Shown: positions 931 through 64,000 of the stretch, piece by piece
How positions within the stretch are numbered: the first letter of the stretch is position 1
Layout of the letters: each line of letters opens with the position of its first letter
From: a virus
Virus record (IMG/VR): IMGVR_UViG_3300031485_000046
Length of the DNA: 64,000 bases
Direction: 5' to 3' (one strand)
Made by a program: the position numbers and the translations under genes
The notes under the pieces: generated by a model
The model's database searches: none
Told to the model about the DNA's origin: nothing
The model's input: the letters and a program-made list of their open reading frames with translations, nothing else

Positions 931-2346
931 TTATTCTGACTGAATCACATTACCCAACGCATCATAAAACACTATCTTTTCATCCACATGGAGTTTATTC
1001 TTTCCATTATGTCTTCGTATCCTGCTACGGAAATCTTCTATCATCCGATATTTTTTTACGAATTCTTCCATATCTCGTACTACGGGCATATAATCCATAG
1101 TTTTGTTATGAATATGCCATGACAGCAAAGTAGATAAATTGGCGGGCGGAACCTCCTCAGACATACTGAATCGGTACAAAGAATTTGCCCATTTCAGTAT
1201 TGGCGGATTCTTGGTTTTCAATGATTCTGCTAATTCTCTAGCCATTTCGACGAACGCCGGAGGCGTATTGTCGAGGGCTAATGAATAATAAAACCAGCTG
1301 AAAGCTGTTTTAGTACCTTCTTTATCTCTGGATGCAAACTCATTCCAAAGTAGGTTTGGAAGAGATACTTTTCCGGTTTCTTTAGATTTATTCCTACTTG
1401 TAACTGCTGTAAGCAGGAGATTCTTAATCTCTTCCGTTGTCCATTGTTTTCTCAGGTAAACCTGGTCGATCTTAAAGGTTTGGAAGAACTCTCGTAATTC
1501 TTTTCTTGGTTGATTGTTCTTCATGCTGACTATCGGTATTCCCTGCAACAATGCTGAAAGCATCTTGCAGGCGGATTGTATCGTTTTACTCTTTGGATCA
1601 AGGTTATGCTTTGTCACATTTGGAAGAGTATTCCAATAAGAAATTATTTCTGAATTAATATCAGATAAAACACTGGCGGACACGCATGTGTCCGATAAAG
1701 TTTTTATTCTTGTATCTTCTTTAGAAGATACAGGAAGAATAACTTTAGTTATTCTTTTGTATTTGTTTATATGTTTATTAGGTTTATATTGTGCCTCGGT
1801 GTTAGGCGTAATGTTAGCATTGATGTTAGGAGTAATGCTGTGAGTGTCATTTTCGATACTCTGGGCGAAAGCTGTTCGTACAACTGAATCGGTACGTTCA
1901 TTGACCTTTTCTACGGGTTCTGTAGAAGGTGTAAATAGTTCTATCAGCTTCAACGGGTTTATTTTGTACCATTCTTTTGCAGGTAAACCTCTGAATTCCG
2001 ATTGCATTACACCTTTTTGAATAAGGATCTTTTTTGCGTATATCACAAATTGTCCAGAAAGGTGCCCTTTTTCATACAGGTCCTTCTTGGTATAGTAAAA
2101 CCATCCTTTATGATTAGGGTACTTCTGCATGTTATACATACACATTTCAATATACATGGATACAAGTCCAGCAAACATCCATCCGTACTTTTTGACCAAT
2201 TCTTTGTTAACGGTATAATAGCTGATTTTACATACCAGGCGATTCATTATTTCGCATTCCTGTTCGTAAGTCAATTCTTTACATTTACCATATTTCTTTT
2301 GTAAAGATTCAATGGTTATTTTTTTATCTTTTTTTATTTTTTCCAT
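931..2346 (-). CDS. Hypothetical protein; possible replication initiation/replisome organiser (by position upstream of loader)
   Basis: Long ORF; start taken at MEKIKK (ATG 2344-2346); function inferred only from context. Confidence 0.65.
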   Translation of the reverse strand: MEKIKKDKKITIESLQKKYGKCKELTYEQECEIMNRLVCKISYYTVNKELVKKYGWMFAGLVSMYIEMCMYNMQKYPNHKGWFYYTKKDLYEKGHLSGQFVIYAKKILIQKGVMQSEFRGLPAKEWYKINPLKLIELFTPSTEPVEKVNERTDSVVRTAFAQSIENDTHSITPNINANITPNTEAQYKPNKHINKYKRITKVILPVSSKEDTRIKTLSDTCVSASVLSDINSEIISYWNTLPNVTKHNLDPKSKTIQSACKMLSALLQGIPIVSMKNNQPRKELREFFQTFKIDQVYLRKQWTTEEIKNLLLTAVTSRNKSKETGKVSLPNLLWNEFASRDKEGTKTAFSWFYYSLALDNTPPAFVEMARELAESLKTKNPPILKWANSLYRFSMSEEVPPANLSTLLSWHIHNKTMDYMPVVRDMEEFVKKYRMIEDFRSRIRRHNGKNKLHVDEKIVFYDALGNVIQSE

Positions 2347-2855
2347 GGCAATACATCTCTCGCTTTCCATGCACAATAATACAACATACTTGTACAAGAT
2401 GCCGCAGGAATATAATACCATGTAACAGATTTTTTGAATCGTTTTTCCTTTTCAATCTTGATAAAGTTAATGGATTGTAGAAATTTAATAACCTCCCGTA
2501 TCTTTTTAAGCGGGAATAGCGTTCTCTCTTGCATTTTTCGTAAAGGGTACGTAAACCAGATATTTCCTTGTTTATCTTCATGGTACTTATCTATCTCATC
2601 TAATTTTCGTTCTGCTGGATATAAATAGTAATGATCATACCCGGAATTTCCGTATGTGTCTTCCGCTATTTGTTTGGCTTCTATCATTAGTGAAATGATT
2701 ACTGCCGTTTCAGTACCCATTATTTTAAGGATATTTGAGTCAATCATAATCCTATCCATCCCACATAGATTCCATGCTACTTTTTCACGAATATCGGAAG
2801 TTATTTCCTTTCCATATACTTTCATAAATGTTTCCATATTCGGTAAACTTTCCAT
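2334..2855 (-). CDS. Hypothetical protein
   Basis: 173-codon ORF with RBS GGAGGTAC upstream of ATG. Confidence 0.7.
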   Translation of the reverse strand: MESLPNMETFMKVYGKEITSDIREKVAWNLCGMDRIMIDSNILKIMGTETAVIISLMIEAKQIAEDTYGNSGYDHYYLYPAERKLDEIDKYHEDKQGNIWFTYPLRKMQERTLFPLKKIREVIKFLQSINFIKIEKEKRFKKSVTWYYIPAASCTSMLYYCAWKARDVLPWKK

Positions 2856-2880
2856 TTATGTACCTCCTTCCGAAAAACCT

Positions 2881-3398
2881 TCAGGCCCTCCATTGTTAAA
2901 AAAGAGCGGAGGTTTTCAAAATTTGGCAACCTCCGCCCTTCCCACGCCCCTAATTCGTGTTTTTGTTTTTTGGAACAATGATGGTGAAACTTTTGCTTTA
3001 TTTACTCGAAACCTTTGTTGCAAGAATGACTGTTTCTGCTTGTCAGGAAATGAAAATCGTCATCATTTTCACATCCAAACTAGGATGATTACAATTATAA
3101 AATAGAATGCTGTTGTGCCGCACCTAGATCGGCCTAAGATTTTTGGTGAGTACATTCTATTTTATTTTTGTAAAATCCAAGCAGGCGTGTTCACTCTTTT
3201 GGAGCAAAACTACAGCCTCCTTTCATGTGTTTCAAGATATGGAGCTAATCTCGCTTCGTGCGAGAATGCATATTATCATACAATAGAAATTTGTCCTAGT
3301 AAAGTTGTCGAAATATTGATAGCAACGGCAGAGAAACGTATAGCGCCTTGCGTTGCATACGCATGGCGGAGAAACGGTCGGCGGAGAAACGGAGAAAC
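2881..3398. repeat. Non-coding element A: conserved TCAGGCCCTCCATT box (2881-2894) and GGCGGAGAAAC direct repeats (3365-3375, 3380-3390, partial 3391-3398); homologous to element at 15169-15697
   Basis: Shared end motifs at near-identical spacing (about 485 bp) in two intergenic regions. Confidence 0.6.
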
Positions 3399-3567
3399 TC
3401 CGCTCCTAAATCTCTGCATGGATCTCCGGAGTGCCTTCTGGATTCCTGAAAACGGTAATACTGCTTACCTCAGAAGTTATACCTGTTCCAGAATCGTATA
3501 CCTTTAAGCGGTGCTGGAACAAAGGTATTGCCAAATTGAGAAGCCTTACCGCGTCTTCTAATTCCAT

Positions 3568-3822
3568 TTACTGTTCCACCTTTGTCATAATTGTGGTACC
3601 GCCCATTTCTACAAACAGGATTGTATATTTACCTTCTGTTTTTTTGGCATACTTGTCGAAAAAGGCCATAAACGTAACAAATTCCATACATATTGTCCGT
3701 ACTACCGTAGGAACGCCTTCTGGAGTAGTTGCCCATTCCACATTAATGCTGATAATACCGTCTGGTAACTGGATTCTATCTGTTTTAGTTATCAATTTAT
3801 AAATCTTAATCCTTTCGTCCAT
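3568..3822 (-). CDS. Hypothetical small protein
   Basis: 84-codon ORF with RBS AAAGGAGAAGG. Confidence 0.6.
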   Translation of the reverse strand: MDERIKIYKLITKTDRIQLPDGIISINVEWATTPEGVPTVVRTICMEFVTFMAFFDKYAKKTEGKYTILFVEMGGTTIMTKVEQ

Positions 3823-4108
3823 TTTTATACCTTCTCCTTTCTATTATGAAAAATAGACTGATAACCACACCTATTACTTCCACGGATTTCATGTTTCCTT
3901 GGTTGGTACGCTATAGCCTTTACTTTCAAGCTATAGTTTCATGTCTTTTTTGCTACCTAGTGATCCTGAGCGATTCTAGAGCCAAGGTTATACTTCTCGT
4001 TTACATCTATCCGATATATAATACACAGGTAATTCTTTTCCTTCAGATGATGGAAAGAAAAAAAGTAGAATATATTAATCAGCTATATTTTTCACAAACG
4101 AATATGGG

Positions 4109-14370: not shown

Positions 14371-14688
14371 CATGTGGTAACCTTACCTCCATCCTTACCA
14401 TCACCTATACCACCATTCATCTGGATCTAATCTGCCTATACCCATATTTAATCTATGGTATTTAATAAATGGACACCATATTTCATAAATGGATAGCCAA
14501 AACCATACAAGCCATATCCTATTCCGTATTCCAATCCAATATATAGATACCTATACCTCCACTTCACCATGTACTGGGAAACCCAGTAATTGGTATAAAA
14601 AAATGGGACCTAAGTGTGGTAACCTAGATTTATCTATGTATGATCGTTTATATAGTGAAACCGAGATTTATACCTATTATTTTGTCCT

Positions 14689-15080
14689 CCACTATACCAA
14701 TACGGTGGTATGCTGGATTGTAATCAGGAAATTCAAATACGGAGTAGACCTCGATGTTTTACTATGTATATATAGAACGTATCTTTATAACAGTACCTAC
14801 CAACTATCCACTACGGTGGTGTGTTGGATTGTACTTATAAATATGTGGAAAATAGAAAATGGGAGGTATTTCGATGTTTTACTATGTAGAACCGACGGTC
14901 TGTTTTTGTCAGGAATCTTCCAACTATCCACTACGGTGGTATATTGGGAGATACTTACCGAAACGTGTATGATATGAAATGGGAGGTATTTCGATGTTTT
15001 ACTATGCATATATAGAGATATTGATTGGTTCCCATTTACCCTATATCTTACCCAGTATCCACTACGGTGGTATGTTGGGT
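14689..15080. repeat. Four direct repeats, period about 120-130 bp, with conserved cores CCACTACGGTGGT and GGGAGGTATTTCGATGTTTTACTATG
   Basis: Core copies at about 14689, 14801, 14921, 15051; second core at 14751, 14871, 14991. Confidence 0.7.
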
Positions 15081-15168
15081 AGTATTAATCCGTAGTATGG
15101 GTAGGTACTGTCTAGATTGTTTATCTATATATAGAGAATGAATAAGGTGTGTCCATTCCCAAAATACC

Positions 15169-15697
15169 TCAGGCCCTCCATTATCTAGAATTTTCCCCAA
15201 TTATAAAAATTTGTCAACCTCTGGCAGCTAAATGGAGTATAAGTATCCTACGGATACATGTATAAAAATGAAATCTTGGACACGTATCCAACGGATTATT
15301 TTATAAAAATGGGATTGGATTATTTTTATTTATACAGGTTCAATTTGAGAAAATGCACCTGTTTGAGTTTTCGATGGGTAATTGGTATAACAATAGTTGG
15401 ATTATATAAAAACGGTATGGGATAATACCAGACCCGTTTTGAAGGCATAAATTGCATAAATCAGTTCCGTTTATTTTTTTATTTCCTATGGATGGTACCG
15501 AATATTTCGAGGAGAAAAGGAATCCATAAAAATCATACGAGGTTTTTCATGCTACCTAATCCAAAATACGTGGCGAATTTTCGGCTCCGTAATCGTTTTT
15601 CTAGAGGTGAGCGGTGAATTCATACCGGTAGAAAATGAGCGCCTTCTAGCGCACCGCTGGCGGAGAAACTCATTGGCGGAGAAACTGGCGGAGAAAA
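15169..15697. repeat. Non-coding element B: TCAGGCCCTCCATT box (15169-15182) and three GGCGGAGAAA(C/A) repeats (15659-15669, 15675-15685, 15687-15697)
   Basis: Homologous end motifs and spacing to element A (2881-3398). Confidence 0.6.
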
Positions 15698-15748
15698 TGG
15701 ATGGATTTTTCTGTTTTTCTGTTTTTCTGATTGTTGTACATCGTTTCT

Positions 15749-15797
15749 ACATTCTACATTCTACATTCTACATTCTACATTCTACATTCTGCATTTC
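15749..15797. repeat. Heptanucleotide tandem repeat ATTCTAC, about 7 copies
   Basis: Direct read of sequence. Confidence 0.75.
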
Positions 15798-16019
15798 AGA
15801 AGAATGCATGTGGTACTTTATAAGATGCATGTATGCAATGTCATATGCATCCTTAATTGTCTCCTGATTACTATACAATTATACACTATTCCTATTCCTG
15901 TTTCAATCGTAACAGATATTTTACTATTATATAATAATCTATAGTATTGTGTCATATTGTAGAATATTCTTATATTCATGAATATCAGACAAGCATAATG
16001 CAGAATGCATATTATACAA

Positions 16020-16213
16020 TGCATTATTCAGCTATATTTTTCACAAGCATTTTTTAGTAGTACAATGCATAATGCAGAATGCATCATGCATTATTCAATG
16101 AAACATTTCACAAGTGTTCATACAGTGCATACAATACATTCTGCATCATGCATCATGCATTATTCAGCTATATTTTTCACAAGCATTTTTTAGTAGTACA
16201 ATACATTCTGCAA
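16020..16213. repeat. Two copies of a 50-bp direct repeat (16021-16070, 16157-16206) plus three copies of TTCAATGAAAYATTTCACAAG
   Basis: Direct read of sequence; repeats about 136 bp apart. Confidence 0.6.
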
Positions 16214-16439
16214 TATGCATTGTATAGCATGTATTATTCAATGAAACATTTCACAAGTGTTACTGTATCCGAAGAGTATACAATGCATTTTTCAATGAAA
16301 TATTTCACAAGCGATACTGTGATCGAATTGTATCTGAATGACTATACAATTCACTATTATTTTATAAAACTCTATAGTATTGCAGAATACAGTAGAATTC
16401 AGTAGAATTATATTAAGTGTATAGTCTTTTCATGCATAG

Positions 16440-17612: not shown

Positions 17613-17750
17613 ATGCATACAATGCATGATGCATCCTGCACTATGCATAGTATAAGCGTTCATAGTAGCATTTGATAACATAACACTACACTATTTATTA
17701 CAATTAGACAATATACTACAATATGATAGTGTAGTGTGTATTGTCTATTC

Positions 17751-17794
17751 TATACACTACAATATAGACAAGTATACACTACAATATAGACAAG
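17751..17794. repeat. Tandem 22-bp direct repeat TATACACTACAATATAGACAAG (2 copies), flanked by inverted repeat ACACTACACTAT/ATAGTGTAGTGT
   Basis: Direct read of sequence. Confidence 0.6.
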
Positions 17795-17998
17795 TATAGA
17801 ATAGAGTATAATAATCTATAGTATGCTACACTATATAGCAATATAATATAATAATATATAATTGTATAGTAAAGCAGATACAATTCAATACAATGACTGC
17901 GCTAGTATACAATGCATGATGCATGATGCATCGTACACAATGCATAATGTAAAATCGATTTTACACGTTGCAGAATGCATGCTGGCTCCTGGCCCCCT

Positions 17999-18674: not shown

Positions 18675-18893
18675 TCATTTCGCCCGCTCCTCCCAGAACC
18701 GTCTGCGTCGCTCCTCCCTGTGACGCTTGATATTCTCCCGCACCCTCTGCGTGCGGGGCGGGAACGTGTTCAGATGGGTCAGCACCGGCTCCACGCTGAC
18801 AGCTCTGCCGAATTCCCTCTCCCATTCCTGGGCGTAGATTTCCTCGTAGGATAACATTTCGCGAAATCTGAGCCCCGTGCATCGTCCGCTCAT
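18675..18893 (-). CDS. Small basic, arginine-rich protein encoded in a GC-rich patch
   Basis: ATG overlaps stop of KdsB-like gene (ATGA); local composition visibly GC-richer than surroundings. Confidence 0.4.
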   Translation of the reverse strand: MSGRCTGLRFREMLSYEEIYAQEWEREFGRAVSVEPVLTHLNTFPPRTQRVRENIKRHREERRRRFWEERAK

Positions 18894-19684
18894 TCCTTAC
18901 CCTCCTTTTTTTCTATAATTTCATCATATTCATTTTCTTTACCAGAGTTTATTATACAACGAACAGCTTCCAAATCAGCAGGAGTATCTACACTAGGTCC
19001 AACTTTTTTTGCTCTTGTTATTTCTACTTTAATGGAAAAATCATGTTCTAATATTCTGAGCTGTTCCAGTGATTCTGCTGATGCCAAAGGTGTTTGTGGC
19101 ATTTTGGCATAATAATGGATTAAGAAACGTCTAGTAAATCCATAAATTCCTATATGTCGGTAGATGGGATATACTTCTTCCGGATCTCTAATAAAAGGGA
19201 TAGGAGACCTACTGAAATATAAAGCATCTCCATTTATTCTGAATGCCACTTTTACTACCGATGGATCATTGATAGTAGCGGTATCTGTAATAAGGGCACA
19301 TATCGTAGCAGATTCCGTAGCCCTATTTTCAGTTTTATAAAATAATGATATTACTTCATCAATCATACAAGGATTAAGTAATGGTTCATCCCCTTGTATG
19401 TTTATCACTATATTATTATTAGAGAATTTTTTAGCTATTTCCACAACTCTACTAGTTCCGTTTGTATGATTTGGAGAAGTTAGCATAGCTTCTCCACCGA
19501 AATTATTTACAGCCTGCACGATTCTTTCATCGTCAGTAGCTACAATCAACCGGTCAAGTAAAGTAGATCGTGAGGCTCGCTCGTACACTCTCTGGATCAT
19601 TGTTTTTCCGCATATATCAGCTAGAGGTTTACCGGGGAGCCTTGTAGAATTGTATCTAGCGGGGATAACTCCTAAAGTTATCAT
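18890..19684 (-). CDS. kdsB: CMP-Kdo synthetase-like cytidylyltransferase (3-deoxy-manno-octulosonate cytidylyltransferase family)
   Basis: IPARYNSTRLPGKPL, VATDDE, GGE, QGDEP, ALYFSR, HIGIYGF, LEQLR, VDTPADLE match KdsB signature blocks as recalled. Confidence 0.85.
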   Translation of the reverse strand: MITLGVIPARYNSTRLPGKPLADICGKTMIQRVYERASRSTLLDRLIVATDDERIVQAVNNFGGEAMLTSPNHTNGTSRVVEIAKKFSNNNIVINIQGDEPLLNPCMIDEVISLFYKTENRATESATICALITDTATINDPSVVKVAFRINGDALYFSRSPIPFIRDPEEVYPIYRHIGIYGFTRRFLIHYYAKMPQTPLASAESLEQLRILEHDFSIKVEITRAKKVGPSVDTPADLEAVRCIINSGKENEYDEIIEKKEGKE

Positions 19685-46439: not shown

Positions 46440-47090
46440 TTATCTAATCTGGAATGTTTTTGTAAATCCGTTTCTACTTTTGCACCATCCTACTAGCCAA
46501 TAACAAAATGGTGTATCACTCAATGCGATCAATATTTTAACAACCCACTGGCTCATTATCATGGAAAATAAAACAGGCATGGGCATAATTCCATAAAATG
46601 CAATAACGATAAAGATTACCGTATCGAAAAACTGGCTAGATATGGTACCTACGTTATTTCTAAGCCACAAATGTTTTCCATGTGTTAAATCCTTTAGCTT
46701 ATGAAATACCCATACATCATTCAGCTGGCTGACAAGATAAGCAGTCAATGAAGCTCCAGTAATCCTACCAACTCTTCCAAAGAGTTCTGTAAAGAATTCC
46801 TGCCTCTCATAGAAAGGAGCGGCGGGAAGCATAACAGCGATAAACCCTAGTGACATAGCAAGCAGACTACAAAAGAATCCTGCCCATACAACCCTTGTAA
46901 CTACTTTCTTACCCCATACCTCTCCAATCACATCAGTCATAAGAAAAGTAATTGGGTATGCGATAACACCTGCTGGTAGAATGAAATCCCCAAACATAAA
47001 CAGTTTTGTTGCCAATACGTTTGCAGTTACCAACGATGTCACAAATACTGCAACCAGTGTGATGAATGTTCTTGGAATCTTGAGTTCCAT
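46440..47090 (-). CDS. YhhQ/VUT-family queuosine-precursor transporter
   Basis: Multi-pass membrane protein; YPITFLMTDVIGEVWG, LTAYLVSQLNDVWVFHKLK, FFDTVIFIVIAF align with recalled E. coli YhhQ blocks. Confidence 0.7.
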   Translation of the reverse strand: MELKIPRTFITLVAVFVTSLVTANVLATKLFMFGDFILPAGVIAYPITFLMTDVIGEVWGKKVVTRVVWAGFFCSLLAMSLGFIAVMLPAAPFYERQEFFTELFGRVGRITGASLTAYLVSQLNDVWVFHKLKDLTHGKHLWLRNNVGTISSQFFDTVIFIVIAFYGIMPMPVLFSMIMSQWVVKILIALSDTPFCYWLVGWCKSRNGFTKTFQIR

Positions 47091-52029: not shown

Positions 52030-53304
52030 TTAATCCTCCTTAGCATCCATACAATCGTCCCATTTCGCACAATCATCACATTCATCATATTCTTCACAAT
52101 CTTTTCCGAATACATGACCGTGCGGACACTTGTTCTTTCCAGCTTTCTTATTTACCTTTTCTTCTTTCTTTCCCTTTTTAGCAGGTTCTTCTTTCAGTTT
52201 CTTTCTACCAGTACCATCACAGGGATTGCATACGCCCCCTCTAGAATTCTTACCAGTACCCTTGCAAGCCACACATTTTTCCTTTTCCGGAATATCTTCC
52301 TCTTCTTCCTCTTCTTCTACTTCATCATCATCTTCATCATCGTCCGTATCCTCTTCATCCTCCTCTTCTTCATCTTCGTCATCCGTATCTTCATCCTCAT
52401 CTTCGTCAGAGATGTCGTCCTCGTCCTCGTCATCCTCGTCAGAAGAATCATCAGCATCGTCTTCATCCTCTTCGTCAGGATCAGCCTCTTTCTTTTTCTT
52501 GGATTTCATCATACTACGGACAGAAGTTCCATCTTCTTCTTCGTCATCCTCAGTTTCATACTCAAAGAATTTAGCTTCCAGCTCATTATACGTAAGCACC
52601 TGAAGAATCTCATCCAGATTAGGAACATCTTTCAGATCCTTTTCCTTATATGGCTTTTCACGTTCTTCAAAATCAATTCTGGAGGTAGCGGCGTACTTAT
52701 TCTTACCAAACTGTTCCTCGCTGAAACGAATCTTGAGAGTAAGCCCTTCATCAGGATCAGGGAATACAGCATTCGTATCATCTTCTTCAAGTTCCTCATT
52801 CAGCTTATCCTGAAAAAGATACTGCGAAATATCCCAAATATGAGGTTTCTTTTCGTGATCCTTTGAATTCAGAGGCACCACTACGTACAAGTTCCGAAGA
52901 GAAGGCTTGAGTGCCTTCAGTTCATCGTCTTCCGCATCTCCATCTTTCACTCGCTTAGCTCGATGTTCGCAGATAGGACATTTCTTACCGAAAGTTGTGA
53001 GGCAGACAAAGGTTTCCTTATTTGCCCCTATTCCGCGATGTACTTTATACGGCTTCTTATACCACTGCTCTCCAACAGTAGCAATACCAAGATCCACATT
53101 CTTATCCATATGCTTTGGGTCTGTAACAGTATATGGAAGAATGTCGAGTGATACTCTAGAACCCGGCTCTTCTTTGAATACTCGAATATTTTTAGGCAGA
53201 TTCAGATATCCGTATTTAGAACCTTGTGCTTTCTGCTGTTTCACATTACCAGCAACTGCCGCCCTGAATTTGCTGTTACTGCCCTTTTTTCCAAGTTTAG
53301 CCAT
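52030..53304 (-). CDS. Putative ssDNA-binding protein with long acidic D/E tract and Cys-rich C-terminus
   Basis: Position in replication module; zinc-ligand-like CPICEH; function inferred. Confidence 0.55.
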   Translation of the reverse strand: MAKLGKKGSNSKFRAAVAGNVKQQKAQGSKYGYLNLPKNIRVFKEEPGSRVSLDILPYTVTDPKHMDKNVDLGIATVGEQWYKKPYKVHRGIGANKETFVCLTTFGKKCPICEHRAKRVKDGDAEDDELKALKPSLRNLYVVVPLNSKDHEKKPHIWDISQYLFQDKLNEELEEDDTNAVFPDPDEGLTLKIRFSEEQFGKNKYAATSRIDFEEREKPYKEKDLKDVPNLDEILQVLTYNELEAKFFEYETEDDEEEDGTSVRSMMKSKKKKEADPDEEDEDDADDSSDEDDEDEDDISDEDEDEDTDDEDEEEEDEEDTDDDEDDDEVEEEEEEEDIPEKEKCVACKGTGKNSRGGVCNPCDGTGRKKLKEEPAKKGKKEEKVNKKAGKNKCPHGHVFGKDCEEYDECDDCAKWDDCMDAKED

Positions 53305-55510: not shown

Positions 55511-57328
55511 TTATTTGAAATGGTAATCTCCCTTCTCATTCCAAGAACAATCAACAGGACACACTTCTGCTTCTACTTCCAAGGGTACATTTATCCAGCT
55601 CCAGTGCTTAGGTAAATCTTCACAAGTAATCCTATGAACAGTAGACGCAACCATATCTAATTCGTCAGGATGCACATCCAACACCATTGCGTCATGTATC
55701 TGTCCGATCAATCTGGATTTCCAGTTCTGTTCTCTGGATATCTTGTCAACCTGAATGAACGACCATAACAGACAATGAAATGCACTTCCCTGAATAGGAA
55801 TATTTATGCATTCATTCCTACGCATGATACCAGAACATCTGAATCCTGTGTACATGCTCACATACCCGTTTTTTTGATACCCTTCCCACCACTTGTCTTT
55901 CCAACGATTATACACTTTGAATCGCCTATTCCAAAAATCATCTTCAATTTTCTTGATATGGTCCGTAAACTTATCGAAGGAATCTAGCTTGTTTGCAATC
56001 AAGTGGTCGGAAATATGACCTCCGTCATGCTCAATGCCTTCACCTTTCTTCCATTTGCCTTTAGATAATCCGCACCATTTACAAGCAATATTTTCGGCGC
56101 AGTTTACATAATAGTCACCATAGAACTGCGGAAATACAAATCCGTTCTTTGCCGCTTGCCTCATCATTTTATGCGATGGTATACTCTTGTCTAACTTATC
56201 AAGTACAAATATCTGACAAGCCATATCACCGTGCATATCCGATGAAGGATCTTCAATGTACTTTCTCATAACAGGGTCATGATGGTAACACTCGCTGATT
56301 CTTACTTCCACTCCTGAATAGTCTATTTCAAGTAGCTGGTGACCTGGCTTAGGAAATATCGCTTTGCGAGTAATCTCCATAGCCTCTTTATCTCGCTTGG
56401 GAATATTTTGGAAGTTTATCCGCTCCGATGAATTATGTACGCATATTTGGTTCACGATAAAATTATGATATTTTTCCACTTCAATATCGTACACATCTAC
56501 CGGCTCATCAAGGTACTCTATTGTGTGGTCTGTATGATTAGACAATACCTTATTAGAAAGACGTGTATCTGATAACGCCCTCGCTTGCACGTATGTTCCA
56601 TCTATTAGACGGATTTTGTGCTCAGGTGTCACATCTAAGTATCCTTTCCCACCTCCACCGTTTATAGAGTAATGGATTCGCACAACTTTCTTATGTCCTG
56701 TTTTGCCAGCCCATATAACTTTTTGAATAGAAGGGCGGAGTTTATCGTCAAAACAATACACATAATCACCCTTCTTTACATTTTCAATAGGGGTCCCTTC
56801 TGGTTGTGCTTCAAAATCTTTCATTACCAATACTTTAGATCCTTTAGCTACACAAGAGCGAAATGTCTTTACTGTATGCAAATTAAAGAAAGGATGCAAG
56901 TATCCGCCTACTTGTTCTCTTATGAAAGCATCCAGATACGTATCTCGCACCTTTTTCAATTTGCGCATTTCCAAAATCCACTTTATCTCAGGAATATCAA
57001 TCTGGGAAAGTGCTTCATCGTCTGTTGCACCCTTGCCAGATGGTGTCAACTTTGCAGGGGTGATTTTCCTAACATTGTACAAAAGGTGTGCTAACTGCCA
57101 ATTAGAATCAGGGTTAGCCTTAGCACCATACACCTTCGTCCAATGCATATAGAATTTAGTATCCCTGAGTTTTCTATCCAATCGTGCTATTTTTTTGTCA
57201 AGGTACTCTTTTTTCTTTAAGCAGTAATCAACATCAATCCGCATTCCTTCTTGTTCTGCCCTCGCAAAAGCAAGGATGCCATCTTGCAATAGCTGATATG
57301 CTTCAGGAAGATTAGGTGTCAGTTGCAT
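55511..57328 (-). CDS. DNA polymerase family A, polymerase subunit (intein-containing)
   Basis: NFQNIP, motif A DYSGVEVRI, motif B RQAAKNGFVFPQFYG, motif C QIHDAMV; start at ATG 57326-57328 with AAGGAGGG RBS. Confidence 0.9.
   Translation of the reverse strand: MQLTPNLPEAYQLLQDGILAFARAEQEGMRIDVDYCLKKKEYLDKKIARLDRKLRDTKFYMHWTKVYGAKANPDSNWQLAHLLYNVRKITPAKLTPSGKGATDDEALSQIDIPEIKWILEMRKLKKVRDTYLDAFIREQVGGYLHPFFNLHTVKTFRSCVAKGSKVLVMKDFEAQPEGTPIENVKKGDYVYCFDDKLRPSIQKVIWAGKTGHKKVVRIHYSINGGGGKGYLDVTPEHKIRLIDGTYVQARALSDTRLSNKVLSNHTDHTIEYLDEPVDVYDIEVEKYHNFIVNQICVHNSSERINFQNIPKRDKEAMEITRKAIFPKPGHQLLEIDYSGVEVRISECYHHDPVMRKYIEDPSSDMHGDMACQIFVLDKLDKSIPSHKMMRQAAKNGFVFPQFYGDYYVNCAENIACKWCGLSKGKWKKGEGIEHDGGHISDHLIANKLDSFDKFTDHIKKIEDDFWNRRFKVYNRWKDKWWEGYQKNGYVSMYTGFRCSGIMRRNECINIPIQGSAFHCLLWSFIQVDKISREQNWKSRLIGQIHDAMVLDVHPDELDMVASTVHRITCEDLPKHWSWINVPLEVEAEVCPVDCSWNEKGDYHFK
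56432..56854 (-). mobile_element. Mini-intein (141 aa) inserted in polymerase
   Basis: Begins Cys (CVAKGSKV), TPEH block B, ends YHNFIVNQICVHN followed by Ser; flanking exteins reconstitute HTVKTFRS-SERINFQNIP. Confidence 0.8.
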
Positions 57329-58590
57329 CCTATGTACCCTCCTTGCTGAATCCATCGCATTTGTTTAGATGCTAACCGGTAAGTGAACAAACTATCCATA
57401 CCACAGTATATCAATAGTTTATTCCAAATATCAGATCCTACAGGAACATCAAGCAATTTGTTCATGGAATTGCTATCTTTATCATCCGCCCCTTTAAGAT
57501 ATGGAGCGACCTCATCATCATACCCTGCTACACCAAAATTGATATAGGTTTGTATCTTCAATCCTGTGATGTCTGGTCTGTTATCAAGAATGTGTGTAGC
57601 CAACATAGTATCCCATATCCAGTTTTTTACTTCATACCCCAGAATATTTTGTGTCCATGTGTGTTCAAACTTCAGATTTTGGGCAATCTTTCCTATCTTG
57701 TCTGATTGCAAAATTTCCTTAAGCAGTCTATTTCCTTTCTTACTTTTAGGCATCCCAAAAACTATTGCATCTTCAGGATTACTACACATGGACATGCAGA
57801 TGATTTTGTGCTTGCTTGTATCATGCGGTTTAAGGCCCGTCGTTTCATAATCAATAGCAATAGAAAACGGAAACTTTCTAGAAAGAAACTCTTCAAAAAT
57901 TCCTACTAGCTCACTTTCTGATTTTACTATCTTGATAGCCGTCATTTCATCTGGATATGTTTGCATAGACATGTCCACTGTATTTAATGCCCTGTCAAGG
58001 TCCTGTTTCCATACTGTTCGATATTCCTGTGCATCTTGTTTTTCTACAAACTCTGGATGAAATATCGGGCAGATCCACGTATTGTATTTCCTATCTGGAA
58101 TAGTAAATCCTCTCCATTTATTCATTCCACCTAAATTCTTTGTCCAGATAGAACCTATCACGGAGTTTAATGCTAGTTCACCTACAAGAATTATCACTTT
58201 AGGTTTATACTGCTCAATAGTAGATAGCACTCTTCGTCGGCAACATTGAACTTCTTTTGTCCACGGATTGGTGGTTTCCTTGGACCCTGAAGCATAGCAA
58301 GACAAAGCAAAGAGATTCAGACAGTCTTTGAACAAATCAACGCCTCTACGTTCAAATTCTCGCCTAAGCGTTGTTCCAAATCTGTCTTGCCACGGTTTGC
58401 CTACTCGATCATCTCTACTGCTTGGCATATCACCAATGACCATTATTTTCTTTTCAAATTCCCCGAATGGTGCCATTCTAGGAGACGAAATATCTTTATA
58501 CAACCCACAAGAAGCGCAAGAGAAAGCCTTATTACCACTAGGCCTAGTTTTAGATTTAGTTTCTTCTACTGAAAAGAATCCACTAGCCAT
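57319..58590 (-). CDS. DNA polymerase A accessory subunit: UDG-like domain plus 3'-5' exonuclease domain
   Basis: N-terminal CASCG and IMVIGDMPS (family-4 UDG-like, variant motif); Exo I IDYETTGL; separate ORF overlapping pol subunit by 10 nt. Confidence 0.85.
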   Translation of the reverse strand: MASGFFSVEETKSKTRPSGNKAFSCASCGLYKDISSPRMAPFGEFEKKIMVIGDMPSSRDDRVGKPWQDRFGTTLRREFERRGVDLFKDCLNLFALSCYASGSKETTNPWTKEVQCCRRRVLSTIEQYKPKVIILVGELALNSVIGSIWTKNLGGMNKWRGFTIPDRKYNTWICPIFHPEFVEKQDAQEYRTVWKQDLDRALNTVDMSMQTYPDEMTAIKIVKSESELVGIFEEFLSRKFPFSIAIDYETTGLKPHDTSKHKIICMSMCSNPEDAIVFGMPKSKKGNRLLKEILQSDKIGKIAQNLKFEHTWTQNILGYEVKNWIWDTMLATHILDNRPDITGLKIQTYINFGVAGYDDEVAPYLKGADDKDSNSMNKLLDVPVGSDIWNKLLIYCGMDSLFTYRLASKQMRWIQQGGYIGCN

Positions 58591-61178: not shown

Positions 61179-61604
61179 TCAGTTACCTGTTCCGTCGTAC
61201 TCGGCAATCACCGAAATATCAGTACCACCTCTGCGATTGAAATTAGCCTCTATTCGCATGTGGTACGGTTTGCAAGCGTTCGACAGATCGTCCAGTATTT
61301 TGTTTGTAACAGACTCCATAAACGCTCCGTGCTGACGATATGCTCCCATGTATATCTTGAGTGCTTTCGTTTCCAAACAAAAATCCTTTGGAAAGTATCG
61401 AATCGTGATAGTGCCAAAATCAGGATTTCCTGTACGCGGACACAGACTGGAAAATTCCGTGAATACGAACTCCGTGGCGTATTGCCTGTCTTTGCACGGA
61501 TTATCAAATACTTCAAGAAGAGCTGGATCTGGATTATTGTACCTGTCGTACGGTACGACTGTTCCGAGGTTTTTCAGATGGTCTACATTCACTTTTCTAT
61601 CCAT
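61179..61604 (-). CDS. queF: NADPH-dependent 7-cyano-7-deazaguanine reductase QueF
   Basis: EFSSLCPRTGNPDFGT (catalytic Cys motif) and ETKALKIYM (QueF motif); start ATG 61602-61604 with GAGGAGGG RBS. Confidence 0.85.
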   Translation of the reverse strand: MDRKVNVDHLKNLGTVVPYDRYNNPDPALLEVFDNPCKDRQYATEFVFTEFSSLCPRTGNPDFGTITIRYFPKDFCLETKALKIYMGAYRQHGAFMESVTNKILDDLSNACKPYHMRIEANFNRRGGTDISVIAEYDGTGN

Positions 61605-62292
61605 TGTTTGCACCCTCCTCATAGAATACTGGGTCGATCAGATTGTTTTCTGCAAAGGCCTCAAGGCGTTCATAACAACTTCCACATTTTCCGCAAGGAT
61701 TCGGTTGGTTCTTGTAACAAGTTCTTGTAAGGTGATATGGTGCGTTATTTGCAATACCATACTGCACTATCTGACTTTTAGACATGTGAAGGAACGGTGC
61801 AAGTATATTCACATTTCTATCCGTACCAAGATAAATCGCTGTATCCATTGCTTTATGAAATTCTGGGCGACAATCAGGGTAAATAGCATGATCGCCTCTA
61901 TGAATTCCTATAGCAATATTCTCTATACCTTTTGACCACGCCATACCGGCTAGGATCGACAGGAACACTAGATTACGAGCAGGTACCACCGTCTGACTCA
62001 TATTCGATGATTCATAGTGTCCTTCCGGTATTTCTCCACCGCTTAGAAGCAGACTAGATTCCATTCCAGTAAATGCTCCGGACAGGTCTACAACTTCGTA
62101 GGTCAATTCGCAAGGAACGGCAGACACATAATATTTCAATACTGCGTCTGCCGCTCTTCGTTCGTACACATTGTGTTTGCTACCGTACTGGAAATTTACA
62201 CAATGGATTTTCTTGAATTCCTTGCGAATAAGCCAAGCAAGAACTGTTGCAGAATCCAGTCCTCCTGAGAAAGAAAGGACTGCGGAACGCAT
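61597..62292 (-). CDS. queC: 7-cyano-7-deazaguanine synthase QueC
   Basis: PP-loop SFSGGLDS; C-terminal CGKCGSC; start at ATG 62290-62292 (longer ORF-track N-terminus rejected). Confidence 0.85.
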   Translation of the reverse strand: MRSAVLSFSGGLDSATVLAWLIRKEFKKIHCVNFQYGSKHNVYERRAADAVLKYYVSAVPCELTYEVVDLSGAFTGMESSLLLSGGEIPEGHYESSNMSQTVVPARNLVFLSILAGMAWSKGIENIAIGIHRGDHAIYPDCRPEFHKAMDTAIYLGTDRNVNILAPFLHMSKSQIVQYGIANNAPYHLTRTCYKNQPNPCGKCGSCYERLEAFAENNLIDPVFYEEGANNG

Positions 62293-62293
62293 C

Positions 62294-63211
62294 TTACTTC
62301 TTCTTTCCAGCCTTCTTGCCAGCTTTCGCTTCCTTAGCCGGAGCGGTCTTTGCAGGCGCTTCCTTCTTTGCAGAAGCTTTCTTTTCCGCCATTTCTGCCT
62401 TCGCCTCCTTCTTTTTAGAAGATTTACTACCACCATCGTGCTTCACGATTTCCTTAGTGATCTTACTGCCTTTCTCACACTTGATATCCGTGAACTTCAC
62501 GATGTTGCCATCTTCCTTGTCAATGTAGATAAGCACAGGGAAGCGGCAATATTTAGGATTAGTCCCATCAGAAAGAATTGTAGAAAGAGCGGCGATGGTT
62601 GCGTCGGGGAACTGCTTTGCCGCAAGTTCGATCAGATCCTTTTTGCTGTACCGACCCTCATTGATAAGGTCGATAAAAAATTCGATCCTTTTGGCAGTCT
62701 TATTGCCACCAAATATCTCATCCTTCGTTTTCGTGGGCTTATCAGATTTTGCAGGCTTTTCTGCCTTCGGAGCCTTAGCAGGCTTTTCTTCCTTGGCTTT
62801 ACTCTTGCCCTTCTTAGGAATAGGAAGTACCTCTATTTCGTCTTCCTCTTCTTCCTCTACATCGTCACCGTCTTCGACATCTTCGTCCTCATCGCTTTCG
62901 TCCCCATCTTCCCCTTCCTCGTTGACCCCTTCATCGTCTTCGTCTTCATCGTCAGCTTCTTCGTCCCCTTCGACTTCTTCCTCATCCGCATCCTCCTCGT
63001 CGGCATCCTCTTCCTCTTCATCAGCATACTTAGCCTGAATCTGTGCAAGAATATCCATCGTTTCCTCGGAAAGTCCATCCTCTTCGCTTACAGCTTCAGA
63101 AGCCTCAAGCAGTTCAGCTTCCAGTTCGTCAGTACCGAGCTTTACATCAATGGGAGGCTCGATAATAGTATTAATCTCCTTAGCCGCCTTAACCAGTTCA
63201 CTTTTCTTCAT
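62294..63211 (-). CDS. Hypothetical protein with long acidic (D/E) and lysine-rich low-complexity tracts
   Basis: RBS TAGGAGGG; 305 codons. Confidence 0.6.
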   Translation of the reverse strand: MKKSELVKAAKEINTIIEPPIDVKLGTDELEAELLEASEAVSEEDGLSEETMDILAQIQAKYADEEEEDADEEDADEEEVEGDEEADDEDEDDEGVNEEGEDGDESDEDEDVEDGDDVEEEEEDEIEVLPIPKKGKSKAKEEKPAKAPKAEKPAKSDKPTKTKDEIFGGNKTAKRIEFFIDLINEGRYSKKDLIELAAKQFPDATIAALSTILSDGTNPKYCRFPVLIYIDKEDGNIVKFTDIKCEKGSKITKEIVKHDGGSKSSKKKEAKAEMAEKKASAKKEAPAKTAPAKEAKAGKKAGKKK

Positions 63212-63321: not shown

Positions 63322-64000
63322 TTAAAAATAACTCCCGATAAAGGGTCGGCCTCGTTGCAAGCATTGAAGCACTTTCACTTGCCTTGTCCTGTCAAATTCT
63401 GATTCCCTTACAACTAATTCTCCTAAGCGCATAATACCGATTTTCTTTTCCTCGTCTGTTTGATTCAAACTATATGTAGCCGTTGTGTGGGCATACTTTC
63501 GTTTGTCTTCCGAGAAGTCTGACAAAGATAAGGTTTCCTTGTCATAACTTGACGCTGCCGCTTGTGTAGCCGTAATCAATAAACAATGTTTCTCCTGACT
63601 CAACTTTCGCATCCTTTGCCAAATCTTGTTTATCTGCCCCCTCCCGTCTAACCTGCTACAGTCATAATCTGGAGCAAGAATGTCCGCATAATCTATCAGA
63701 ACTACATCAGGTACGAACCCATCCTGTCGCTCCCACAACGTAAGCAGATTGCTAATTTCCTGCATGGTAAGAGTTTCATTTGGATATGTGGCTAACTTAA
63801 ATTTCTTATTATGTTTCTTCTGCCATGCTTTCATAATCTTGTATGCGTCCTTCCATGTAAGTGTTTTGACAGAAGGACTGTACTCTAGCCAAACAGCACC
63901 TCGTATTCTATCACAATTCCTACATGGTTTATACTCTGGATAATCTTGTTTTGCTTCCATCAGCATATCAAAGGTAATCTTCTTTTGTTCCATATCCGGA
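63322..64000 (-). CDS. Partial CDS (C-terminal region; N-terminus beyond window end): RecA-fold DnaB-like helicase
   Basis: VVLIDYADIL (Walker B-like) and CLLITATQ blocks spaced as in DnaB C-terminal domain; ORF open to window edge. Confidence 0.55.
   Translation of the reverse strand, partial: PDMEQKKITFDMLMEAKQDYPEYKPCRNCDRIRGAVWLEYSPSVKTLTWKDAYKIMKAWQKKHNKKFKLATYPNETLTMQEISNLLTLWERQDGFVPDVVLIDYADILAPDYDCSRLDGRGQINKIWQRMRKLSQEKHCLLITATQAAASSYDKETLSLSDFSEDKRKYAHTTATYSLNQTDEEKKIGIMRLGELVVRESEFDRTRQVKVLQCLQRGRPFIGSYF

What the first reader, a model, noticed from the sequence alone, without database searches (positions are those of the whole stretch)
2881..3398. Two homologous non-coding elements with GGCGGAGAAAC iteron-like repeats
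Element A (2881-3398) and element B (15169-15697) both start with TCAGGCCCTCCATT followed by a related AAAATTTG(G/T)CAACCTC segment, and about 485 nt later both carry AGCGCCTT...TGGCGGAGAAAC followed by further GGCGGAGAAA(C/A) copies. The interiors differ. A sits inside the replication module, B in the large non-coding region. Candidates are iteron-containing origins, or ends of a non-coding RNA or defunct mobile element.
Basis: seen in the sequence. Interest (0 to 1): 0.55.

Follow-up and report, generated by a model that had tools for sequence, protein, structure and literature searches.

The report
Paired phage control modules, not iterons
An uncultivated 64.6-kb phage carries two copies of a ~540-bp non-coding module, a short-repeat array and a rigid promoter-like cassette about 480 bp apart; the copy in the replication module encloses a new ~370-nt structured RNA gene just upstream of the replication-initiator operon, so these look like paired transcription-control elements rather than replication-origin iterons.

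Summary
Elements A (2858-3400) and B (15146-15697) share only their ends (shuffle z 8.5 and 10.6); their interiors are unrelated (z -0.7).

Related metagenomic phages keep both elements: A in 8 sequence types and B in 3.

The left end is a gap-free 53-nt cassette, GAGGT-N40-GGGCCTGA. On the minus strand it reads as -35 TTTAYA, a 17-nt spacer, -10 RATAAY, a GC-rich start and a U-rich leader. In every A copy it runs straight into a ribosome-binding site and whichever gene follows.

The right end is 3-5 copies of GAGAAAC, always 474-527 nt from the cassette.

A's interior is a minus-strand RNA gene with a near-consensus sigma-70 promoter, about 370 nt of covarying structure, and an intrinsic terminator built into the cassette. 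B has none of these.

The repeats stay unchanged where the initiator's DNA-binding domain is swapped, and the initiator genes carry their own lineage-specific tandem repeats. The iteron reading is therefore disfavoured.

Within a genome, the A and B ends evolve in concert.

Best reading (about 0.4): two copies of a leftward transcription-control module. The function is inferred, not shown. The conserved ~480-bp spacing is unexplained.

The parts
2858..3400 (-). Element A as a whole: repeat array, internal promoter, RNA gene, terminator, and promoter-like cassette with leader.
   Evidence: Its left border is a mosaic breakpoint at about 2858-2863 in relatives.
3327..3398 (.). Right-end array of A: GAGAAAC at 3331, 3369, 3384 and 3392 on the plus strand (GTTTCTC on the minus strand). 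It begins 5 nt after the stop codon of the 53-aa gene.
   Evidence: The core is invariant in 7 of 8 A sequence types.
3275..3303 (-). Internal sigma-70-type promoter P_int: -35 TTTACT (3303-3298), 17-nt spacer, -10 TATGAT (3280-3275).
   Evidence: It is conserved in relatives, and reads TTGACT-18-TATAAT (11/12) in L061.
2898..3268 (-). Predicted ~370-nt structured non-coding RNA, or long leader, running from P_int to the terminator.
   Evidence: MFE z -5.2. Consensus structure has 96 pairs, 16 with compensatory changes. 93% of cells pair, against 42-47% in slid controls. 93.0% pair on the minus strand against 84.4% if the plus strand were the RNA. No Rfam match.
2898..2938 (-). Intrinsic terminator: stem GGGCGGAGGTT (2938-2928) pairing with AACCTCCGCTC, followed by T6 (2914-2898). 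Folded with its flanks (2895-2950) the hairpin has dG about -25 kcal/mol.
   Evidence: The hairpin is kept with changed sequence in L026, L061 and L069.
2858..2933 (-). Left cassette of A: GAGGT (2933-2929), -35 TTGAAA (2919-2914), -10 AACAAT (2897-2892), GGGCCTGA (2888-2881), U-rich leader, RBS GGAAGGAGG (2871-2863). The start codon of the 173-aa gene follows at 2855.
15146..15697 (-). Element B as a whole.
15146..15221 (-). Left cassette of B: GAGGT (15221-15217), -35 TTTATA (15207-15202), -10 GATAAT (15185-15180), GGGCCTGA (15176-15169), and leader GGTATTTTGGGAA. There is no terminator hairpin, no T-run, and no RBS or gene after it.
15222..15637 (.). B interior. It has no internal sigma-70 promoter and no significant RNA structure. 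Its array-proximal part (about 15460-15660) is nearly invariant among 10 homologues and is partly shared with L071.
15638..15697 (.). Right end of B: the hairpin-forming stretch from AGCGCCTT (15638) to about 15655, then GGCGGAGAAAC at 15659 and 15675, and GGCGGAGAAAA at 15687.
15878..15955 (-). Two strong leftward sigma-70-type promoters: TTGAAA-17-TATAAT (15906-15878) and ATGACA-18-TATAAT (15955-15926). They would transcribe the B array and interior on the minus strand.
   Evidence: Equivalent leftward promoters lie to the right of B in L071 (4007-3979) and L061 (12591-12562).

Best explanation
A and B are two paralogous copies of a bipartite cis-acting module for leftward (minus-strand) transcription.

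Part 1 is the left end. It is a rigid ~75-bp promoter-plus-leader cassette: a GAGGT element at about -45, -35 TTTAYA, a 17-bp spacer, -10 RATAAY, a GC-rich start region GGGCCTGA, and a U-rich leader. In A it launches, or re-launches, transcription of the replication-initiator operon. In B it launches an untranslated leftward transcript.

Part 2 is the right end. It is an array of 3-5 GAGAAAC/GTTTCTC units about 480 bp upstream. I infer that this is the binding site of a sequence-specific phage regulator acting on leftward transcription.

In A, the space between the two parts holds a sigma-70-driven ~370-nt structured RNA. Its intrinsic terminator is built into the cassette, so a short terminated RNA or leader precedes the initiator operon.

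Shown directly from sequence: the homology, the geometry, the RNA-gene signals, the covariation, and the conservation across lineages.

Inferred only: promoter activity, protein binding to the array, and any functional coupling between the two ends.
For: Left cassette.
- GAGGT-N40-GGGCCT(A/G)(A/G) occurs without any indel in every A and B copy: 21 distinct sequences covering 11 sequence types of element (8 of A, 3 of B). It occurs nowhere else in the window.
- The promoter scan independently flags the same aligned hexamers in window A (2919-2892), window B (15207-15180) and L071 (3397-3369).
- In all A copies the cassette is followed, at a nearly fixed distance, by AAGGAGG plus a start codon, whatever gene follows: a 130-219-aa winged-helix-like protein or directly a type-2 initiator. 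The recombination breakpoint sits exactly there.

Array.
- The core is invariant in A copies of 7 sequence types and in all 3 B types, while copy number (3-5) and spacing (8-38 nt) vary.
- In the most divergent lineage, L069, the same position holds 4 copies of an unrelated repeat (TTTAAGGC) while the cassette is unchanged. This is the behaviour of an exchangeable operator/regulator pair.
- Both arrays lie downstream of leftward promoters.

RNA gene in A.

Concerted evolution. In the 30-nt window around block 1, the two copies within a genome are as alike as or more alike than A is to its counterpart in the other genome. Within-genome identity is 77% in the window and 77% in L061; window A against L061 A is 63%. 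The variable patch is TCCAT in both window copies and CCAGG in both L061 copies.

The phage sigma-like factor diverges faster between the window and L061 (55% aa identity) than the primase does (79%).
Against: - The -10 hexamer lacks the canonical final T in most lineages (GATAAC, AATAAC, TAATAC), so host sigma-70 recognition is uncertain.
- Only two copies of the cassette exist, which is few for a phage-sigma promoter class.
- No candidate array-binding protein was found. The adjacent 53-aa gene is absent from two array-bearing lineages and present in the lineage with the different array. The 173-aa protein is absent from several array-bearing lineages.
- The variable spacing of the repeats is unusual for cooperative DNA binding.
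- B's cassette leads into no gene.
- The model does not explain why the array-to-cassette distance is held at about 480 bp in both A and B despite unrelated interiors.
- There are no transcript data.
Confidence: 0.4

Rival explanations
1. Replication origins or auxiliary origin elements. The GAGAAAC arrays are iterons bound by the O/DnaD-like initiator (931-2421), and A and B are two origins or an origin plus a cis-acting partner site. The precedents are SPP1 oriL/oriR and P4 ori/crr (from my own knowledge). Optionally the A transcript would prime or activate replication, as in lactococcal phage c2 or ColE1.
For: A sits immediately upstream of the initiator-loader operon. Both elements are AT-rich (interior GC 0.26-0.44) and carry clustered direct repeats. 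There are two copies per genome with shared repeats. One lineage has a different repeat at the same site, as expected for specificity switching.
Against: The arrays are unchanged across a swap of the initiator N-terminal domain to a version about 25% identical, and across initiators only 46-59% identical overall. Initiator genes carry their own tandem repeats with an adjacent AT-rich tract in the linker, with a different motif in each lineage: window 1800-1837, L032 24 nt x 2.5 perfect, also L068 and L069. This is the usual origin location for this initiator class (established knowledge for lambda O and phage replisome organisers). Repeat spacing is irregular (8-38 nt). GC skew simply follows gene orientation.
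Confidence: 0.2
2. RNA-level signals. The GUUUCUC repeats, and possibly the GGGCCUGA leader, act within leftward transcripts. They could be a nut-like processive-antitermination site that lets upstream transcripts read through the A terminator into the initiator operon, or a C-rich Rho-loading or processing site.
For: Both arrays lie inside predicted leftward transcription units, after the 53-aa gene stop in A and 100-200 nt after strong promoters in B, B' and B''. Variable spacing and copy number suit multivalent RNA recognition. A small hairpin after the array shows one compensatory change between A types 1 and 2 (read). A strong terminator lies about 450 nt downstream in A. On the minus strand, C exceeds G over the arrays and the B' interior, and B interiors are unstructured.
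Against: The post-array hairpin is not conserved in B' or B''. No antiterminator homologue was identified. B has no downstream terminator or gene to regulate. Rho loading needs no conserved 7-mer.
Confidence: 0.2
3. Terminase recognition (pac-like) sites: two protein-binding ends flanking a cleavage region, with B next to the terminase genes.
For: B lies 0.8-1.5 kb downstream of TerL in all three B lineages. It is surrounded by short tandem repeats: heptamers at 15745-15795 and octamers at 15706-15729.
Against: A is 8.7 kb from the terminase genes, inside an operon. The cassette is fused to an RBS and gene in A. There is no evidence of read or contig termini. Nothing here is specific to terminase.
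Confidence: 0.05
4. Remnants of a ~540-bp non-autonomous mobile element (MITE-like) present in two copies.
For: There are two copies of equal length with conserved ends. A 9-bp inverted match joins the left end to the array in one lineage (L026: CTCCGGTAT / ATACCGGAG, read).
Against: That inverted match falls to 6-8 of 9 in the other copies and is broken in the closest relative, L061. There is no target-site duplication, no empty sites, no transposase and no interior similarity. The ends are in fixed register with neighbouring genes.
Confidence: 0.03

Closest known systems
Lambda late control region: pR' promoter, 6S RNA, tR' terminator, Q antitermination (from my own knowledge)
   Same: A constitutive sigma-70 promoter makes a short terminated RNA immediately upstream of an operon. 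Expression of that operon then needs read-through or re-initiation. Regulator sites lie next to the promoter.
   Different: Here the RNA is about 370 nt and structured. A second promoter-like cassette overlaps the terminator. The repeat array lies 25-130 nt upstream of P_int. No Q homologue was found. A second copy (B) lacks the RNA gene.
Lambda nutL / nutR (from my own knowledge)
   Same: Two homologous short non-coding sites per genome, each downstream of an early promoter, evolving together with a lineage-specific factor.
   Different: No boxA/boxB architecture. Both copies are on the same strand. The element is bipartite, with a ~480-nt spacer.
SPP1 oriL/oriR and P4 ori/crr (from my own knowledge)
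   Same: Two distant loci share short repeats, and one of them lies in the replication module.
   Different: The repeats do not follow the initiator's DNA-binding domain. In-gene repeats are the better origin candidates.
Arrays of 7-8-bp operator repeats bound by ribbon-helix-helix proteins: omega of pSM19035, and MetJ metboxes (from my own knowledge)
   Same: Short 7-8-bp units, partly contiguous (8-nt period in L026, L067 and window 3384/3392), near promoters.
   Different: Spacing is irregular. No RHH protein was detected. Binding is untested.
Transcribed origin of lactococcal phage c2, and the ColE1 RNA II primer (from my own knowledge)
   Same: A structured non-coding transcript several hundred nt long inside the replication region.
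   Different: The A RNA ends at a strong intrinsic terminator and points into the initiator operon. There is no evidence of priming.

Membership tests
Iteron-type phage/plasmid replication origin | Direct repeats are the specific binding sites of the cognate initiator, so they co-vary with its DNA-binding domain. | tested here: not met
   The GAGAAAC arrays are identical in phages with type-1 and type-2 initiator N-domains (about 25% identical over the first 250 aa) and across initiators 46-64% identical overall.
Iteron-type phage/plasmid replication origin | Regularly spaced repeats next to an AT-rich unwinding element. | tested here: inconclusive
   Spacing is irregular (8, 12, 15, 16, 38 nt). 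The interiors are AT-rich (GC 0.26-0.44), but in A the adjacent DNA is a promoter and RNA gene.
Iteron-type phage/plasmid replication origin | Initiator binding and replication start at the site. | not testable with these tools
   Needs EMSA and origin mapping.
Any described RNA family (Rfam 15) | Covariance-model match at the gathering score. | tested here: not met
   No match in the window at gathering score. Only sub-threshold chance hits were found (best: L20_leader at 21.9 bits against a 58.7 cutoff).
Independent bacterial-type RNA gene (sigma-70 promoter plus intrinsic terminator) | Promoter hexamers with 16-18-nt spacing, conserved in relatives. | tested here: met
   TTTACT-17-TATGAT at 3303-3275. 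Conserved in types 1-3. TTGACT-18-TATAAT in L061. Similar promoters in L067, L068 and L069.
Independent bacterial-type RNA gene (sigma-70 promoter plus intrinsic terminator) | GC-rich hairpin followed by a U-tract. Structure supported by covariation. Non-coding. | tested here: met
   Terminator dG -25 kcal/mol plus U6. 16 compensatory pairs against 2-5 in slid controls. The candidate micro-ORF start is lost in L005. Caveat: only three independent lineages could be aligned.
Sigma-70-type promoter (left cassette) | -35 and -10 hexamers 17 bp apart, including the invariant A at position 2 and T at position 6 of the -10. | tested here: inconclusive
   Geometry is fixed in 21 distinct sequences. 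The A at position 2 is present in 8 of 9 compared sequence types, but position 6 is C in 6 of 9. The scan tool flags 3 copies at 9/12.
MITE / IS-derived mobile element | Terminal inverted repeats, target-site duplication, near-identical copies, empty sites. | tested here: not met
   No empty site was found in any relative.
Lambda-type nut antitermination site | boxA plus boxB hairpin, and a cognate N-like protein. | not tested
   No boxA/boxB-like conserved hairpin was seen by eye in B' or B''. No model search was possible.

The most novel reading that the evidence does not exclude
The array and the cassette form one length-measured (~480 bp) bipartite element that works as a unit, for example by protein-mediated looping or wrapping, or by a transcript of fixed length. 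It is kept in two copies per genome by concerted evolution. It would couple expression of the replication-initiator operon with events in the repeat-rich region next to the terminase genes. That would be a kind of phage control or origin element not described so far.
Probability: 0.15. Interest if true: 0.75.

Novelty: new variant of a known kind. Interest (0 to 1): 0.55.

Why it matters
Non-coding control DNA of uncultivated phages is almost unexplored. This work defines three things: (i) a new conserved ~370-nt structured RNA in front of a phage replication-initiator operon; (ii) a rigid promoter-like cassette present exactly twice per genome and evolving in concert; and (iii) a conserved ~480-bp distance to an exchangeable repeat array. 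If the two ends act together, this would be an unusual long-range control or origin-like device in a lytic phage with its own replisome and sigma factor. If they do not, it is still a clean example of how modular promoter and terminator cassettes mark recombination joints in phage mosaics. It also warns against calling any clustered repeat near a rep gene an 'iteron'.

Tried and rejected
- Rfam at gathering and E-value thresholds, and ARAGORN: nothing.
- Megablast of the first 20 kb against phage and plasmid records: no match. The nearest isolates share only 31-50% TerL identity.
- Protein coding. No ORF is conserved. The TTG micro-ORF after the SD-like AAAGGAGG is lost in L005 and L026. Read-through of TAG, TGA or TAA gives no consistent frame; the 180-codon plus-strand frame across A with one TAG is not kept in relatives.
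- Hidden interior homology among A, B, A' and B': none (z -1.1 to 2.5).
- B as a structured RNA: MFE z -1.7 and -1.4 for B, 0.05 for B'', 0.16 for B'.
- A closing helix or inverted repeat between the left end and the array: perfect only in L026, weak elsewhere, so rejected as unsupported.
- Pairing between the repeats and the terminator arm as an antiterminator: only the trivial CUCCG/CGGAG match.
- The 53-aa and 173-aa neighbouring proteins as array binders: their phyletic pattern does not fit. No DNA-binding domain was found in the small neighbouring proteins.
- Distant primase or TerL relatives (L027-L029, L065, L072) lack the element.
- Literature search for the motifs: only unrelated primers.
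- A 14-base cassette pattern scanned against viral contigs returned only chance hits apart from loci already known.
- No covariance model was built, because a ~380-nt model seemed likely to exceed the tool's calibration-time limit.

Full report
**What the window is.** Related contigs join window position 64000 to position 1 through a constant 611-nt stretch. The window is therefore almost a whole circularly permuted phage genome of about 64.6 kb. No close relative exists among deposited phages or plasmids.

Genes from 11348 down to 1, and on from 64000 down to 43931, lie on the minus strand. They encode an SNF2 helicase, a small sigma-70-family protein, a primase, an O/DnaD-like initiator, a DnaC-like loader, PolA with an intein, a clamp, a clamp loader, a RecA-like protein, an SbcCD-like nuclease, ThyX, dUTPase, and QueC, QueF-like and YhhQ-like proteins. 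TerS, TerL, portal and the structural genes lie on the plus strand from 11596. A 7.4-kb insert separates TerL from portal. It is repeat-rich and largely non-coding, and it contains element B.

**Checking the observation.** GGCGGAGAAAC with up to 1 mismatch occurs 9 times against 0.67 expected. Against dinucleotide shuffles, A and B align significantly at the left end (z 8.5) and the right end (z 10.6) but not in the interior (z -0.7). The left homology actually extends to about 2858 and 15146.

Neither element codes for protein:
- There is no conserved ORF.
- Indels among relatives are not multiples of three.
- A candidate micro-ORF loses its start codon in L005.
- No stop-codon reassignment helps.

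Rfam and ARAGORN find nothing.

**Relatives.** DNA-pattern scans and protein-anchored look-ups recovered the following.
- A homologues fall into eight sequence types: window/L018/L031/L045/L066; L032/L052; L001/L005; L026; L061; L067; L068; L069.
- B homologues fall into three sequence types: the window type (L021, L022, L030, L034, L035, L040, L050, L053, L056); L061-L064; L071.

L061 is the only other contig that holds both elements. Both occupy the same genomic positions as in the window. More distant relatives (L027-L029, L065, L072) lack them.

**The left end is a rigid cassette.** Read on the minus strand, all copies align without a single gap:

GAGGT - N8 - TTTAYA-like hexamer - 17 nt - RATAAY-like hexamer - 3 variable nt - GGGCCTGA - N4 - TTTT

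The regular expression GAGGT.{40}GGGCCT[AG][AG] matches every A and B copy, giving 21 distinct sequences. In the window it matches only at those two places. The individual blocks are not enriched elsewhere in the window.

The consensus promoter scan flags exactly these hexamers in window A (TTGAAA-16-AACAAT, 2919-2892), window B (TTTATA-16-GATAAT, 15207-15180) and L071 (TTTATA-17-AATAAT).

In every A copy the cassette continues into AAGGAGG and a start codon. The gene that follows differs between phages: a 130-219-aa protein with a weak winged-helix-like match, or directly a type-2 initiator. The recombination breakpoint lies at 2858-2863, at the end of the cassette.

I therefore read the left end as a promoter plus 5' leader for leftward transcription. 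There is one caveat. The last base of the -10 hexamer is C rather than T in most lineages. The polymerase holoenzyme that uses it, whether with host sigma A or with the phage's own sigma-like protein, is therefore open.

B's cassette has the same geometry but no gene behind it.

**The interior of A is an RNA gene.** On the minus strand a conserved promoter (TTTACT-17-TATGAT, 3303-3275; TTGACT-18-TATAAT in L061) is followed about 370 nt later by a strong intrinsic terminator. The terminator stem runs from 2938 to 2904, with T6 at 2903-2898. Folded with its flanks (2895-2950), it has dG about -25 kcal/mol. The 5' arm of the terminator contains the cassette's GAGGT. Its 3' arm and T-run fill the cassette's 17-nt spacer. 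B copies have neither hairpin nor T-run.

The evidence for structure:
- The RNA folds better than shuffles (z -5.2).
- A consensus structure over three alignable lineages has 96 pairs, 16 of them with compensatory changes.
- 93% of cells pair, against 42-47% when partners are slid. The covariation score is 0.233 against at most 0.106.
- G-U pairs favour the minus strand: 93.0% paired against 84.4%.

This support is moderate, for two reasons. The structure was derived from the same six sequences, and they represent only three lineages.

Conserved blocks such as UGAAAGGRGG and AAAUGAUGAC recur in L026, L061 and L069.

B, B' and B'' show no internal promoter, no terminator and no excess structure.

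**The right end.** The invariant core is GAGAAAC(T) on the plus strand. There are 3-5 copies at irregular spacing, and copy number varies even between close relatives (L005 has one more than L001).

In A, the array begins 5 nt after the stop codon of a genuine 53-aa gene. Its C-terminus...PEGTPEIHAEI, is conserved at the protein level in relatives. The array sits 25-130 nt upstream of P_int.

In B, B' and B'', the array lies 100-200 nt downstream of strong leftward sigma-70-type promoters.

In L069, the same position holds four copies of a different motif (TTTAAGGC on the sense strand), while the cassette is unchanged. This shows that the array and the cassette are separable modules and that array specificity can be exchanged.

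**Why the arrays are probably not iterons.** In L018, L005, L032, L052 and L066, the segment 1654-2858 is replaced. That segment holds the initiator N-terminal half and the 173-aa gene. The new initiator N-domain is only about 25% identical to the window's, while the C-terminal half is over 90% identical. The arrays stay the same.

The initiator genes themselves carry tandem repeats in the inter-domain linker, each lineage with its own motif:
- window: 12 nt x 3.2 at 1800-1837, followed by an AT-rich tract;
- L032: 24 nt x 2.5, perfect, plus 15 nt x 2.7;
- L068 and L069: their own repeats.

From established knowledge of lambda O and of phage replisome-organiser genes, that is where the cognate origin is usually found.

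**Two observations that remain unexplained.**

First, concerted evolution. The variable patch just upstream of GGGCCTGA is TCCAT in both window copies and CCAGG in both L061 copies. L026, otherwise almost identical to L061 in A, has TCCGG there. Either gene conversion or co-evolution with one trans-acting factor keeps the two copies alike. The phage sigma-like protein is 55% identical between the two lineages, against 79% for the primase. That is compatible with co-evolution but does not prove it.

Second, length homeostasis. The distance from TCAGG to the main repeat cluster is 474-499 nt in every copy. This holds even though interiors are unrelated between A and B, and between B and B'. Within A, 22-79 gap columns in 7-16 indel events cancel out to a net difference of no more than 13 nt. 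RNA structure could explain this for A, but not for B.

**Mechanism I commit to (confidence about 0.4).** A and B are two copies of a control module for leftward transcription. It consists of an upstream array bound by a sequence-specific regulator, which is inferred, and about 480 bp downstream a promoter/leader cassette, which is moderately supported.

In A, host polymerase starting at P_int makes a structured ~370-nt RNA that ends at the terminator inside the cassette. Expression of the initiator operon then depends either on firing of the cassette promoter or on read-through.

In B, the cassette starts an untranslated leftward RNA that runs against the end of the late TerS-TerL transcription unit.

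Rivals are an auxiliary origin (0.2), RNA-level signals such as a nut-like or Rho-loading site (0.2), pac-like sites (0.05) and a defunct mobile element (0.03). The remainder is 'something else'.

**Novelty.** No database family matches, and no paper in the searched library mentions the motifs. The parts are of known kinds: promoter, terminator, operator-like repeats, phage non-coding RNA. The new features are the paired, length-conserved, concertedly evolving arrangement and the RNA itself.

Noticed in passing
window 1760-1837 (inside the initiator gene 931-2421, minus strand): Tandem repeats (12 nt x 3.2, TTACTCCTAACA on the coding strand) followed by an AT-rich tract, in the linker between the initiator's two domains. 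The swapped type-2 initiator of L032 has perfect 24-nt x 2.5 and 15-nt x 2.7 repeats at the same place. This is the likely true origin.
   Followed up: partly
window 14687-15090: Four ~120-nt tandem units. Each has an imperfect palindrome around CCACTACGGTGG, followed by GGGAGGTATTTCG-ATG and a 28-33-codon ORF starting MFYY. Similar units occur in L070 and L071. Function unknown.
   Followed up: no
window 15706-15795: (TTTTTCTG)x3, then (TTCTACA)x7.3, immediately to the right of B's array. Related TTCTGCAT/CAGAATGCA repeats flank the arrays in L061 and L071, and flank the A copy of L067.
   Followed up: partly
window 15978-16315, 17620-17950 and 4066-4097: Five ~68-nt tandem units, each carrying a plus-strand promoter-like TTCACA-17-TACAAT and ATGCAT-rich operator-like words. 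Inverted copies lie about 1.5 kb away (16061-16092 against 17621-17652, 91% complementary). A related 32-nt copy overlaps the minus-strand promoter at 4097-4069, after the primase terminator.
   Followed up: no
window 1 / 64000: All relatives bridge the window ends with the same 611 nt, so the window is a nearly complete circular or terminally redundant genome of about 64.6 kb. In several relatives a 512-aa DnaB-like helicase follows the DnaC-like loader (L066, L068, L069), but it does not appear to in the window.
   Followed up: partly
window 1654-2858 and 3600-3818: Mosaic replacement of the initiator N-terminal half plus the 173-aa gene (in L018, L005, L032, L052, L066). Deletion of the 84-aa gene (in L032, L052). 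The breakpoints coincide with the edges of element A's cassette.
   Followed up: partly
window 18890-19684 (minus strand): A KdsB (CMP-Kdo synthetase) homologue scoring 287 bits. This is an auxiliary gene pointing to a host with Kdo-containing envelope glycans, even though the phage genes use strong Shine-Dalgarno sites.
   Followed up: no
window 46440-47090, 61179-62436 and 55511-57355: A YhhQ-like preQ0 transporter, a QueF-like protein and QueC, suggesting 7-deazaguanine DNA modification. PolA is interrupted by an intein, and relatives add an HNH domain there.
   Followed up: no
window 2656-3507 (plus strand): A 284-codon frame antisense to element A and its neighbours is interrupted by a single TAG at 3103-3105. 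It is not conserved in relatives and is probably a composition artefact.
   Followed up: yes
window 52268-52485 and 62826-63037 (minus-strand ORFs): Long acidic (D/E-rich) low-complexity repeats in two ORFs. These account for the largest 'repeat families' reported by the repeat finder.
   Followed up: no
L009:2241-2393 and L008:5845-5880 (unrelated viral contigs): Other phages carry non-coding clusters of GGCGGAGA-type repeats: GGCGGAGACTT/GGCGGAGAAAC in L009, and an 18-nt tandem AGGAGAAACTCTCCTGGG in L008. They lack the left cassette.
   Followed up: no
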